Shown here: positions 12,001-15,000 of the stretch, one piece after another
How the letters are laid out: every line of letters begins with the position of its first letter
Numbering within the stretch: the first letter of the stretch is position 1
IMG/VR virus record: IMGVR_UViG_2529293138_000009
Location: 1-20,832 of that record
Direction: 5' to 3' (one strand)
Source of the DNA: a virus
Taxonomy: Duplodnaviria > Heunggongvirae > Uroviricota > Caudoviricetes
Length of the DNA stretch: 20,832 bases
Made by a program: the position numbers

Positions 12001-15000
12001 GCACTGAAAGCGGATTTCTTCGGGTTTGCCCCAGCACGCAACGGGTATTCCCGCCAGACCTGTTCGAACACATCCGGATAATCCACTCGTCCCACAGGCT
12101 GCCCGGTGTTTTCCGGGACTACCCGATCGGCTTCCCGCTGAATGGCGGAATCGGCTTCAGGCTGCTGCAGTTGGTGTGATTGCTCCGGCCTTGCGGTCAT
12201 CACCTGCTGCACAGCGCCCGAATCGGCTTTCAGCGCATACGCTGAATCGGCTTCCGGTGTCGTGCCTGCTGGCTGACCAGGATTGACGGTCTGAACATCC
12301 CCTGACTGGTTCGTGGCGTTTTTTACGCCATGGACCATAGTGTTTTGATCTTCTTTATCTGTATCTTTATCTGTATCTTTATCTGTCGTGACTCGTCGTG
12401 ACATGTGCGTGACATTTCGTGACGCGCCGTGACAATCGCCATTTTGTTCCCGCTTTCTTTCCCTCTCTCGCTGCGCCCTCTTGCGCTCTGCAGGAGATTT
12501 TGCGGTTTGCGAAATATTGCCGTTGTCCTCTTTCAGCACCTGGCGTTTTTCCCATCCAGTGATTAAATCACCATCAAGTACCCGCCACTGCATCGTCTGC
12601 AAAATTGAATCAATTACCTCTTCTGTCACGTCGAGCGCACTTGCCAAATCTTCTGTCGTGACATCAATGTGACCTCGCGTGACATTTCGTGACGCGCTCA
12701 CCAAGAGGTGGATATACACTGCCATCACTGTTGCAATTGGCTGCCCTGACACCCTGGCAATTGTTCGCCACTTAGGGTCATTTGGCATGTCATGCCATAA
12801 TCTGAGCCAGGCGTTAGCCATACTCACCTCTTCTGATACCGAATCTTTTTACTCACGAGTTGCCGGAAGCGATTCGATATGGCTATTGTCAGTCAATGTA
12901 CTGCCACAGCATTTCCTGCCGGGCCACCACGTTTCATCTGATTGAAACCGGCGATTGCCACTGCGACAAAATCATCAGCGTCTCTCACCAGTCGCTCCCG
13001 CGTCTCCACCAGTTCCCGAAAATAAGCTGAACTGTGGCTGCGCATTCTGGCCACCAGCAAAGGTGGCATTGCCTTTTCGATCGCTGGTAACAACGCCTGA
13101 ATTTTTTCAACAGCATCAGGGGTGTCTTTCTCCACCCAGCGGAAAATTTTCTGGGTATTACGAGCCAGGGCTTCCGGATGGCTGTCGTCGTACAGTTCAG
13201 GAAACGTCAGCCCCAACTCAAAATAAGCCCGGGTTATTTCAGCTGCCGGAACTTTTTCACCGTCCGGATGCGCCCAGACATTCATCGCCATGCGGATGTG
13301 TTCATGCTTGATTTTCATGAATCAACTCCATCAGATAAGCATGCACTACAATCACCTTCAGCATGAACTACATGTGTTTGCCCCAAACGAATGCCGCTCG
13401 CATACTCAGGCCAAATAAGCTCCCAATCATGGGGTCGTAGCTCCGCCCTACTTACTTGGCCTTCCGTCGCAGATTCGATCATAAGGGCGCGGGTTGGAGA
13501 TATAGCTGCTCGTCCAGACGCCATTTGCGATAAGTAAGATGGCGATACACCAAGTCTGGCCGCGAATTTCTTAGCATCACCAACCATCAATGATTTAATA
13601 AACTCTTTTAATGTCATACCTTCCTCGGTTTAGTGTTTTTTTGCGAGTTTAGTGTTTAATAAACCATTAAGTCAAGTATTTGCTTGTTTAGTGATTACTA
13701 AAGATAATTACCACATGCAAAAAAAAGAAATTCGCCGTTTACGTCTCAAGGAGTGGTTTAAAGATAAAACTCTGCCACCCAAAGAGAAGAGCTACCTATC
13801 TCAACTAATGAGTGGGAGGGCCTCGTTTGGAGAAAAGGCTGCCAGAAGAATAGAGCAAACATACGGGATGCCGGAAGGGTATCTGGATGCGGAATACGCA
13901 GAACAACCGGCAGTTTCTCCACCACATGCAGGGTTAACGTCTAATCAACTGGAATTATTGCAGATTTTTTCAGCCTTCCCTGAGGATGAGCAACGCCAGA
14001 TAATCAGCGAGTTAAAGCAGAAAAAAGAATCAATGGAAGATCTAATAGCGAGATGGATTGCGGCGCAAAAATGCCGCCGCGCCTGAGTTATAAAACCGGA
14101 GGAAACATGAATAGAGCCCTTTCACCAATGGTTTCTGAATTTGAAACCATTGAACAAGAAAACAGTTACAACGAATGGCTGCGTGCGAAAGTAGCAACGA
14201 GCCTTGCAGATCCGCGCCCAGCAATTCCCCATGACGAAGTTGAGCGCAGAATGGCAGAACGCTTTGCTAAAATGCGCAAGGAACGGAGCAAACAGTAAAA
14301 TGTTACCCGTGTTATGGCTTGAAAGCGCAGATACCGACCTAGATGATATAACTAGTTATATTGCTCGTTTCGACATAGATGCGGCTGAACGCTTATGGCA
14401 GCGATTAAGGGGTTGTGTGCTGCCGTTATCCGAACATCCGTATTTATACCCACCAAGCGACAGAGTACCTGGCTTGCGTGAGATTGTAGCCCACCCTAAC
14501 TATATAATTCTATACCGCGTAACAACATCAAGCGTTGAAGTAGTAAACGTGATCCACGCAAGACGCCAGTTTCCCTAACTTTCACTACCAATAGAAACAT
14601 AACAACCGCAACGACTTTATCAAAAGCGTTGTGTTTGTTACGCTCCGTGGTTTAGTTTTTACTTGACTTAAGTTTAATGTTTATTAAACTAAAAATACCA
14701 ACCCACCCCGCCCCACAGAATGCAGGGCAATACTTCGAGTTACCAGGCAGTGGTCAGGGGTTAAGTAGCCAGCCCGAGGCGTAAGAACATGACGGCAGGG
14801 TTCAACTTTAATAACTATGCAGCAGGTTTTTGTTCCGCTACCCCGGCGTTAAGGGGAAATTAGGTCAACATGGATACTATCGATCTTGGCAACAACGAAT
14901 CTCTGGTGCACGGCGTGTTTTCCAACCAGGACGGCACATTCACCGCGATGACGTATACCAAAAGCAAAACGTTTAAAACCGAAAATGGTGCCCGTCGCTG

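What the first reader, a model, noticed from the sequence alone, without database searches (positions are those of the whole stretch)
12351..12692. Two phased iteron clusters plus AT-rich tandem repeats inside the replication initiator gene (probable ori)
Cluster 1 has three 12-bp ATCTTTATCTGT repeats immediately followed by five CGTGAC hexamers spaced 10-11 bp apart. Cluster 2, about 265 bp away, has four or five more CGTGAC/GTCACG copies with the same phasing. Helical-phase iterons next to an AT-rich element inside the initiator gene mirror lambda ori within O. The repeats also encode the repetitive acidic linker of the protein.
Basis: seen in the sequence. Interest (0 to 1): 0.5.

Follow-up and report, generated by a model that had tools for sequence, protein, structure and literature searches.

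The report
Phage replication origin inside initiator gene
The repeats are real and are most likely the replication origin of an E. coli lambda-like prophage, written into the gene of its own initiator protein; the principle is long known from phage lambda, but this origin type, which recurs in prophages of many Proteobacteria, turned up in no paper I could find.

Summary
Window 12351-12693 lies in a 356-aa phage "replisome organizer" gene (11751-12821, minus strand). It holds three 12-bp AT-rich repeats, then five CGTGAC hexamers at 10-11 bp spacing. About 260 bp away is a second array: three exact copies, one TGTGAC variant and one inverted copy.

The hexamers are DNA-level elements, not peptide repeats:
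- They are read in all three codon frames.
- Synonymous-codon resampling never reproduces their number (0 of 20000).
- In 18 divergent homologs, third codon positions inside the hexamers are 94% conserved against 56% elsewhere.

The layout of array A, array B and then an AGATAAAGATAAAGA-like tract recurs at the same gene positions in about 30 prophages, from E. coli to Bordetella, Pseudomonas and Chromobacterium. Some lineages carry a different hexamer in both arrays. An E. coli O157 allele has an unrelated N-domain, the same C-terminal half, and different iterons in the same layout.

The N-domain model is a DnaD-like winged helix, and both arrays fall in low-confidence or disordered parts of the models.

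Best reading (0.75): an iteron origin with an AT-rich unwinding element. It works like lambda ori-in-O and SPP1 oriL-in-gene-38, but it is not a lambda O family member. Binding and origin activity are untested. I rate it a new member of a known kind, of moderate interest.

The parts
11751..12821 (-). Replication initiator ('phage replisome organizer') gene, 356 aa. The start is the ATG at 12821, preceded by GAGGTG.
   Evidence: PHROG 3729 E 7e-255. NCBI calls the 97%-identical cluster 'phage replisome organizer'. The homologs all begin MAN.WLRLWHD. The gene is 99.2% identical to the gene of plaque-forming phage Tritos.
12438..12821 (-). Coding region of the N-terminal winged-helix domain (aa 1-128), the presumed iteron-binding domain.
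12657..12693 (-).
   Evidence: The same gene positions are occupied in 18 or more divergent homologs. The hexamer columns are 90-100% conserved, third codon positions included. The array encodes the loop between helices 29-45 and 56-63. Residues 46-51 have pLDDT below 50 in the full-length model, and the better N-domain model averages 85 over residues 41-50.
12625..12630 (+). Single inverted iteron copy (the + strand reads GTCACG, so it is CGTGAC on the coding strand, at gene nt 192), 32 bp beyond array A.
   Evidence: It is present in about half of the GTCACG-type homologs. It overlaps the conserved peptide LDVTE, so DNA-level selection cannot be told apart from protein-level selection here.
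12387..12433 (-). This is the presumed core origin array.
   Evidence: The hexamers are read as CHG, ASR, VT, MSR and VT, so all three frames are used. Every GTCACG-type homolog has 3-5 copies at 10-11 bp spacing directly before the AT-rich tract. The array lies in the segment predicted disordered, aa 128-244.
12351..12387 (.). AT-rich tandem repeat, 3 x 12 bp (coding strand ACAGATAAAGAT). This is the presumed DNA unwinding element.
   Evidence: The least stable 40 bp of the gene starts at 12343: -43.5 kcal/mol against a window mean of -54.3, sd 4.8. In nearly all homologs the most AT-rich 36 nt of the gene starts right after array B, even in genes of 65-68% GC, with a conserved AGATAAAGAT core. 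Copy number varies from 2 to 5 among E. coli alleles, while the iteron number is the same in 78 of the 80 alleles.
12307..12337 (.). Imperfect inverted repeat (13-nt arms, 85% complementary, 5-nt loop) just beyond the AT-rich tract. It may be a third origin element.
   Evidence: Homologs tend to have an inverted repeat of unrelated sequence at the same place: mean perfect stem 6.2 against 4.9 elsewhere in the gene, and in 6 of 21 loci it exceeds every other window (binomial p 4e-4). This is suggestive only.
11754..12089 (-). Coding region of the C-terminal helical domain (aa 245-356), the presumed host-replisome recruitment module.
   Evidence: PHROG 1701 'DnaD-like helicase loader' E 8e-63 and PHROG 9327 'primosomal protein' E 8e-16. 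The C-terminal tail weakly resembles the DnaT C-terminus (NF002770 E 0.0014; PDB 6aep E 0.55). This half is exchanged as a block among alleles.

Best explanation
The region is the vegetative replication origin of a Rac/Qin-like lambdoid prophage, and it is written inside the gene of its own initiator.

Proposed mechanism:
1. The initiator's N-terminal winged-helix domain binds the GTCACG iterons. These sit one helical turn apart, so all sites face the same side of the DNA, in two arrays: A with 4 copies plus 1 inverted copy, and B with 5 copies.
2. The protein array assembled on B, possibly bridged to A about 230 bp away, strains the adjoining AT-rich (ACAGATAAAGAT)3 tract until it opens.
3. 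The C-terminal DnaD/DnaT-like half then brings the host helicase DnaB, probably with host DnaC, to the opened DNA. The phage has no loader gene of its own next to rep.

Shown here:
- The repeats exist and are under DNA-level selection.
- Their layout is conserved across many Proteobacteria.
- Their sequence changes together with the N-domain.
- The N-domain is predicted to have a DNA-binding fold.
- Array B and the AT tract are encoded in the disordered linker, and array A in a surface loop where homologs carry insertions.

Inferred: binding of the N-domain to the iterons, unwinding at the AT tract, helicase recruitment, and origin firing.
For: 1. DNA-level selection.
- The hexamers are read in all three frames (ASR, VT, GHI, VT / CHG, ASR, VT, MSR, VT).
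- The count of 8 is never reached when synonymous codons are resampled (0 of 20000).
- In 18 homologs averaging 70% nt identity, third codon positions inside the hexamers are 0.94 conserved against 0.56 outside (Mann-Whitney p 6e-6).

2. Conserved architecture.
- In 51 loci from one-genome-per-species contigs, GTCACG is the commonest hexamer of the gene in about 25 of 37 genes analysed. It sits at nt ~129-160 and nt ~380-450.
- Spacings between successive copies are 10 bp in 86 cases and 11 bp in 26, out of 116 spacings under 40 bp.
- Array B is always followed directly by NNAGATAAAGATAAAGA, with 90-100% column conservation.
- That spot is the AT-richest part of the gene even in hosts of 65-68% GC.

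3. Co-variation.
- GTAACG-type and CGAACG-type lineages carry the changed hexamer in both arrays.
- E. coli O157:H7 allele L133 shares the C-terminal half (92%) but has an unrelated N-domain. It carries AAGGGGCTT iterons at 11-bp spacing, again in two arrays, followed by a simple repeat.
- Allele L134 keeps the N-domain and the GTCACG arrays but has a DnaT-like C-domain.
- The mosaic breakpoints fall at the AT-rich repeats, window ~12346-12364.

4. Protein.
- PHROG 'replication initiation protein' and 'replisome organizer' families match.
- The winged-helix model is closest in rmsd to the DnaD N-terminal domain, and it also resembles the plasmid RepA initiator.

5. The module works. Phage Tritos has a 99.2% identical gene with every hexamer identical, and it forms plaques and makes virions (PMC9928086).

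6. Precedents.
- SPP1 oriL, with AB-box iterons and an AT-rich DUE, is embedded in gene 38, and 356 bp suffice for replication in vitro (PMC5737612).
Against: - There is no experimental evidence of binding, unwinding or initiation for any member of this family. No paper on it was found, though the searchable library is incomplete.
- The AT-rich tract is only 67% AT. It is the least stable stretch of the gene but not of the 20.8-kb window, where several intergenic and moron regions are less stable.
- A 6-bp core is short for an iteron.
- The putative recognition helix (aa 67-77) varies a lot among proteins that share GTCACG iterons, so no reading code can be derived.
- The distance between the two arrays is not held to an integral number of helical turns.
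- A few homologs have no recognisable array in the gene: L028, L030, L035, L036 and L046.
Confidence: 0.75

Rival explanations
1. The arrays are control sites rather than the origin. The initiator, or another phage protein, would bind them to repress or block transcription of rep. Alternatively they would pair two arrays or two genomes ('handcuffing') to limit initiation, like the incA iterons of plasmid P1 or incC of F. The true origin would lie elsewhere.
For: There are two separate arrays, and only one of them (B) adjoins an AT-rich tract. Iteron plasmids are known to use a second array for copy control (established knowledge of P1 and F plasmids). The selection and co-variation data show that a protein binds here, not what follows from the binding.
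Against: The strict adjacency of array B to a conserved AT-rich tandem repeat, even in GC-rich hosts, is the signature of an unwinding site, not of an operator. The same arrangement has been shown to be the origin in lambda and SPP1. No other iteron-like cluster is present in the 20.8 kb available. A control role for array A is compatible with the main explanation rather than opposed to it.
Confidence: 0.12
2. The repeats are a by-product of a repetitive protein. Duplicated peptide motifs (ASRNVT...VTT occurs twice; TDKD three times) in flexible linkers would have arisen by slippage and carry no DNA-level function.
For: The two arrays encode similar peptides, SASRNVTRGHIDVTT and GASRNVTHMSRRVTT. 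The 12-mers encode (TDKD)3, and their copy number varies among alleles, as expected for slippage. In the models array B and the 12-mers lie in the disordered segment aa 128-244, and array A lies in a loop.
Against: - The hexamer is read in three different frames, so it is not one peptide unit.
- The 10-11 bp period is not a multiple of three.
- Synonymous positions inside the hexamers are almost invariant across taxa while the flanking residues vary.
- Lineages with another hexamer change both arrays at once, and an unrelated N-domain carries its own two arrays.
- The iteron number is the same (4 + 5) in 78 of 80 E. coli alleles, and the other two each lack one array A copy.
Confidence: 0.03
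3. The arrays are binding sites for some other machinery: a host factor, a packaging or recombination protein, or the neighbouring DUF977 DNA-binding protein. In that case they mark something other than replication initiation.
For: A DUF977 gene with a weak 'DNA binding protein' PHROG match lies directly downstream. Phased short repeats are also typical of terminase small-subunit and partition sites (general knowledge).
Against: - The site lies in the early replication module, far from any packaging genes.
- The iteron type tracks the N-domain of the initiator in E. coli alleles that share DUF977 downstream.
- GTCACG arrays persist across hosts as different as Bordetella, Pseudomonas and E. 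coli, which argues against a host-specific factor.
- There is no DnaA box in the gene.
Confidence: 0.05

Closest known systems
Phage lambda and Stx-phage ori inside gene O (O protein, Pfam Phage_rep_O)
   Same: The origin lies in the middle of the initiator gene. It has direct repeats (iterons) with an AT-rich tract on one side and an inverted repeat beyond that. The N-terminal half of the protein goes with the iterons, and the C-terminal half is an exchangeable host or loader-interaction module. The gene sits after cro- and cII-like genes in the rightward early operon (PMC7466680; window context).
   Different: The protein gives no Pfam match above threshold, Phage_rep_O included. The iterons are 6-bp cores repeated every 10-11 bp, not 19-bp imperfect palindromes. 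There are two arrays about 230 bp apart instead of one. No P-like loader gene follows rep in this phage.
Bacillus phage SPP1 oriL embedded in gene 38 (replisome organizer G38P)
   Same: The name 'replisome organizer' is shared. The origin consists of initiator-bound repeats (AB boxes) plus an adjacent AT-rich DUE inside the organizer's own gene. A few hundred bp suffice for replication in vitro (PMC5737612). I did not compare G38P's sequence with this protein.
   Different: SPP1 brings its own loader (G39P) and helicase (G40P), and it has a second G38P-binding site (oriR) elsewhere in the genome. Here no loader or helicase gene is adjacent, and both arrays are inside the one gene. The hosts are Gram-negative. 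The repeat sequences are unrelated.
DnaD N-terminal domain and the RepA_N-type staphylococcal plasmid initiator (PDB 8ojj, 2vn2, 4pta)
   Different: Sequence identity is only 9-14%, and no sequence-level match to these families was found. DnaD itself is not a sequence-specific origin binder. Those plasmids are Gram-positive.
Iteron plasmids with two iteron arrays (P1 incC/incA, F incB/incC)
   Same: A Rep gene is associated with two separate arrays of the same iteron, of which only one adjoins the AT-rich unwinding region (my own knowledge). This offers a model for array A as an enhancer or a control locus.
   Different: There the arrays flank the rep gene rather than lying inside it, the iterons are about 19-22 bp long, and the Rep proteins belong to a different family with two winged-helix domains.

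Membership tests
Iteron-type replication origin (generic definition) | Three or more direct repeats of one short sequence, regularly spaced | tested here: met
   Five plus four direct copies at 10-11 bp spacing. Across homologs the spacing is 10 bp in 86 cases and 11 bp in 26.
Iteron-type replication origin (generic definition) | An AT-rich, easily melted tract adjoining the repeats | tested here: met
   The least stable 40 bp of the gene starts at 12343. Homologs have their AT-richest 36 nt directly after array B.
Iteron-type replication origin (generic definition) | A cognate initiator encoded in cis, with iteron sequence co-varying with the initiator's DNA-binding domain | tested here: met
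   The GTCACG, GTAACG, CGAACG and AAGGGGCTT types each occupy both arrays. The type switches with the N-domain while the C-domain stays the same.
Iteron-type replication origin (generic definition) | The initiator binds the repeats, and the fragment supports initiator-dependent replication | not testable with these tools
   This needs gel shifts or footprinting and a plasmid replication assay. No publication on this family was found.
Lambda O / ori-lambda family | Initiator belongs to Pfam Phage_rep_O (lambda O N-terminal domain) | tested here: not met
   The Pfam scan of the whole protein found no family at E <= 0.01. At E <= 1 the N-domain gave only Phage_rep_org_N and HTH_Crp_2.
Lambda O / ori-lambda family | About 19-bp imperfectly palindromic iterons in a single array of 4-6 | tested here: not met
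   The core is 6 bp with a 10-11 bp period, the copies are direct repeats, and there are two arrays. The lambda features are taken from PMC7466680.
Lambda O / ori-lambda family | A P-type helicase loader gene directly downstream | tested here: not met
   The next gene is DUF977, followed by an OLD-family gene on the other strand. Tritos has the same arrangement. Allele L134, with a DnaT-like C-domain, does have a P-like gene.
Phage replisome organizer, N-terminal domain (Pfam PF09681 Phage_rep_org_N) | Score above the Pfam gathering threshold | tested here: not met
   The score is 16.1 bits against a cutoff of 23.3, at E 0.011, although the match covers residues 5-123 against profile positions 1-119 of 121. 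Six of 30 homologs match, the best at E 3e-4. PHROG 'replisome organizer' families match at E 2e-6 to 1e-4. This points to a distant relative at most, not a member by the curated threshold.
DnaD-like winged-helix N-terminal domain fold | Winged-helix fold superposable on the DnaD N-terminal domain | tested here: met
DnaT (primosomal protein I) C-terminal domain | Match to Pfam PF17948 or NCBIfam NF002770 | tested here: not met
   Only the last 24 residues match NF002770, at 18 bits against a cutoff of 201. PDB DnaT chains match at E 0.55-0.88. Sister alleles with another C-domain do carry PF17948.

The most novel reading that the evidence does not exclude
This could be an undescribed origin class, widespread in temperate phages of Beta- and Gammaproteobacteria.

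- Very short one-turn-spaced iterons in two arrays are overprinted on low-confidence or disordered segments of a DnaD-like winged-helix initiator.
- The invariant (GATAAA)n/AGATAAAGAT tract next to array B would not be merely AT-rich. It would be a sequence-specific single-strand binding element, a phage counterpart of the bacterial DnaA-box plus DnaA-trio unwinding system.
- The initiator would load host DnaB without any phage-encoded loader, through a DnaT-like C-terminal module.
Probability: 0.2. Interest if true: 0.6.

Novelty: new member of a known kind. Interest (0 to 1): 0.42.

Why it matters
The gene is very common: 1647 of 5426 complete E. coli genomes hold at least 80% of it. Relatives occur in prophages of many Proteobacteria. 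Yet its origin appears in none of the papers I could search.

- Knowing the origin gives a defined cis element for building phage-derived replicons.
- It helps in reading induction (marker-frequency) data.
- It allows predictions of replication incompatibility between co-resident prophages that share or differ in iteron type.
- The family is a clean natural example of a DNA element overprinted on a coding sequence. The protein places the iterons in loops and linkers. The N-domain with its iterons and the C-domain are exchanged as separate modules, with breakpoints at the AT-rich repeat.
- A functional phage (Tritos) has no loader gene next to this initiator. This raises a testable question about how host DnaB is recruited.

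Tried and rejected
- Pfam scan of the whole protein: no family at E <= 0.01.
- NCBIfam: only a 24-residue sub-threshold DnaT match.
- Profile search of PDB sequences: nothing below E 0.5.
- Full-length AF2 model: too poor to search with (pLDDT 52). I re-modelled the N-domain alone on a deeper alignment.
- Literature searches found no paper on this origin. The terms were replisome organizer/iterons/prophage, GTCACG/origin, DnaT/replisome organizer, and origin-within-coding/lambdoid. One candidate, PMC2647930, concerned an unrelated ICE oriV.
- The Rac prophage oriJ literature gave no sequence information and concerns the K-12 Rac prophage, whose replication genes I did not compare with this one.
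- Helical phasing between the two arrays: the gap is 211-340 bp with non-integral turn numbers that differ between loci. I make no claim.
- DnaA boxes: none with one mismatch or fewer in or next to the gene.
- Promoter and terminator scan of 11200-14200: counts at shuffle expectation, nothing usable.
- A reading code between the recognition helix and the iteron type could not be derived, because the helix varies within one iteron type.
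Full report
**What is in the sequence.** The finding lies inside ORF 11751-12821 on the minus strand (356 aa). On the plus strand it contains the following.
- TCTTTATCTGTA three times in tandem at 12352-12387.
- Immediately after, CGTGAC at 12387, 12397, 12408, 12418 and 12428 (spacings 10, 11, 10, 10).
- A second array with exact CGTGAC at 12657, 12678 and 12688, the variant TGTGAC at 12668, and an exact inverted copy at 12625.

CGTGAC occurs 20 times in the window against 6.5 expected (0 of 100 shuffles reach 20), and 9 of the 20 lie within 307 bp. The only corrections are that the second array has three exact direct copies, and that the 12-mers encode (TDKD)3, which is mixed-charge rather than acidic.

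**The gene and its setting.**
- The protein matches PHROG 3729 'replication initiation protein' end to end (E 7e-255). It gives weaker matches to 'replisome organizer' and 'DnaD-like helicase loader' PHROGs. It has no Pfam hit at E <= 0.01. NCBI names the 97%-identical cluster 'phage replisome organizer'.
- Upstream on the same strand are a YdaT/cII-like gene and a YdaS/cro-like gene, facing a cI-like repressor gene.
- Downstream is DUF977, then an OLD-family ATPase-TOPRIM gene on the other strand. This is the early-right operon of a Rac/Qin-like lambdoid prophage.
- The window also carries DicF, sok and an 823-aa ORF (17074-19545) at the position where Tritos has exonuclease VIII.
- The gene is 99.2% identical to that of phage Tritos from E. 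coli LF82. There are 9 differences and none is in a hexamer. Tritos forms plaques on MG1655 and makes virions (PMC9928086).
- At least 80% of the gene is present in 1647 of 5426 complete E. coli genomes.

**The repeats are DNA-level elements.** On the coding strand the hexamer is GTCACG.
- It is read as ASR, VT, GHI and VT in array A, and as CHG, ASR, VT, MSR and VT in array B. All three frames are used, and the period is not a multiple of three.
- With the protein fixed and synonymous codons resampled, the count is 1.4 on average and never reaches the observed 8 (0 of 20000).
- Eighteen homologs from different genera share 74% aa and 70% nt identity over the first 76 codons. In them, third codon positions inside the hexamers are 0.94 conserved against 0.56 outside (p 6e-6).

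**Conservation of the architecture.** A scan of one genome per species returned 51 loci.
- In about 25 of the 37 genes analysed, GTCACG is the commonest hexamer of the gene. These include Shigella, E. albertii, Rahnella, Serratia, Aquitalea, Chromobacterium, Bordetella, Acidovorax, Castellaniella, Pseudomonas and Gilvimarinus.
- It sits at the same two places: nt 129-160 (3-4 copies) and nt ~380-450 (3-5 copies).
- Successive copies are 10 bp apart in 86 cases and 11 bp apart in 26.
- Array B is always followed directly by NNAGATAAAGATAAAGA-like tandem repeats whose columns are 90-100% conserved.
- The AT-richest 36 nt of the gene starts there in nearly every locus, including genes of 65-68% GC.
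- In the window this tract is the least stable 40 bp of the gene (-43.5 kcal/mol against a mean of -54.3), though not of the whole window.
- In 78 of 80 near-identical E. coli alleles the iteron number is the same (4 + 5), and the other two each lack one array A copy. The 12-mer copy number ranges from 2 to 5.

**Co-variation.**
- Some lineages carry GTAACG (Pantoea, Enterobacter, Marinobacter, Sphingomonas) or CGAACG (three uncultured genomes), and the change appears in both arrays.
- Within E. coli, partial matches break at window ~12346-12364, which is the AT-rich repeat.
- Allele L134 keeps the N-domain and the GTCACG arrays (5 + 5). It has a DnaT-like C-domain and is followed by a lambda-P-like gene.
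- Allele L133 (O157:H7) keeps the window's C-terminal half (92%) but has an unrelated N-domain. It carries a different iteron, AAGGGGCTT at 11-bp spacing, again in two arrays (nt 172-199 and 441-466) followed by a simple repeat. It is followed by a DnaC-like ATPase gene.
- So the iterons travel with the N-domain, as ori specificity does with the N-terminal part of lambda O.

**The protein.**
- Pfam Phage_rep_org_N aligns over the whole domain but below threshold.
- In the full-length model, aa 46-51 (part of the array A loop) and aa 128-244 (array B, the 12-mers and the EADSA repeats) have pLDDT below 50. In the better N-domain model the array A loop averages pLDDT 85 over residues 41-50. Homologs carry insertions of extra iterons exactly at these two places.
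- The origin elements therefore sit where the protein tolerates arbitrary sequence.

**Mechanism proposed.** N-domains bind the one-turn-spaced hexamers along one face of the DNA. The assembly on array B melts the adjoining AT-rich repeat, perhaps helped or controlled by array A 229 bp away. The C-terminal DnaD/DnaT-like half recruits host DnaB, probably with host DnaC, since neither this prophage nor Tritos has a loader gene after rep. Binding, melting and recruitment are inferences.

Two systems in which this has been shown stand as precedents.
- Lambda and Stx-phage ori lies in the middle of O, and synonymous iteron mutations abolish replication (PMC7466680).
- SPP1 oriL lies in gene 38, with AB boxes and a DUE, and 356 bp suffice in vitro (PMC5737612).

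**Rivals.**
- A purely regulatory or handcuffing role cannot be excluded for array A, but it does not explain the conserved AT-rich neighbour of array B.
- A protein-repeat by-product is contradicted by the frame and synonymous-site data.
- Binding by a host factor or by DUF977 is disfavoured, because the iteron type follows the initiator's N-domain, and the same iteron occurs in very different hosts.

**Comparison and novelty.** The element works like lambda ori and SPP1 oriL but fails the membership tests for the lambda O family: no Phage_rep_O match, no 19-bp palindromic iterons, and no P gene. It is at best a distant, sub-threshold relative of the Pfam replisome-organizer N-domain. I found no publication describing this origin, but the searchable library is incomplete. 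I rate it a new member of a known kind. It is a well-supported origin prediction for a very common prophage replication module, with some unusual features: a 6-bp core, two in-gene arrays, a conserved (GATAAA)n tract, and no adjacent loader gene.

**Dead ends** are listed under 'tried and rejected'.

Noticed in passing
window 12307-12337: An imperfect inverted repeat (13-nt arms, 5-nt loop) lies just beyond the AT-rich 12-mers. Homologs tend to have an inverted repeat of unrelated sequence at the same relative place: mean perfect stem 6.2 against 4.9, with 6 of 21 loci exceeding every other window of their gene. From my own knowledge, lambda ori also has a palindrome beyond its AT-rich tract.
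   Followed up: partly
window 12148-12254: GAATCGGCTTC occurs three times (12148, 12220, 12244). It encodes EADSA peptide repeats in the disordered linker of the initiator. Some alleles (P0006, P0020) have deletions between these repeats, and an EADS-like motif persists in distant homologs. It might be a short linear interaction motif.
   Followed up: partly
window 11288-11750, and L133 and L134: No helicase-loader gene follows rep here or in plaque-forming phage Tritos; rep is followed directly by DUF977. Sister alleles have a DnaC-like ATPase (L133) or a lambda-P-like gene (L134) plus DUF1627 before DUF977.
   Followed up: partly
L133:2499-3590 (E. coli O157:H7 E32511): An initiator allele with an unrelated N-domain (MRDYAKVSPRFWLGE...) carries AAGGGGCTT iterons at 11-bp spacing in two arrays (gene nt 172-199 and 441-466), followed by (GAACAG)n. 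This is the same design built from different parts.
   Followed up: partly
window 9304-11115 (+): A 603-aa OLD-family protein (AAA_15/AAA_21 ATPase plus OLD-like TOPRIM) sits on the opposite strand, after the DUF977 gene that follows rep. Tritos has a different gene in this slot, so it looks like a variable defence-moron position.
   Followed up: no
window 8664-8838 (-), 16379-16430 (+), 1669-1861 (-): Rfam matches above gathering score: sok antitoxin RNA next to a small hok-like ORF, DicF sRNA, and STnc100.
   Followed up: no
L005, L006, L009, L012, L014, L016, about 30-60 nt after the AT-rich tract: Several homologs with other C-terminal halves share a C-run motif after the AT-rich repeats, for example CCCCCCTAACCCCCCGC...GGGGG. 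It is often part of a small inverted repeat, and it is absent from the window's allele.
   Followed up: no
P0155, P0174, P0175, P0188, P0212: Some short metagenomic proteins combine this N-domain with HNH endonuclease Pfam domains (PF01844, PF14279). This is an unexpected fusion that I did not examine.
   Followed up: no
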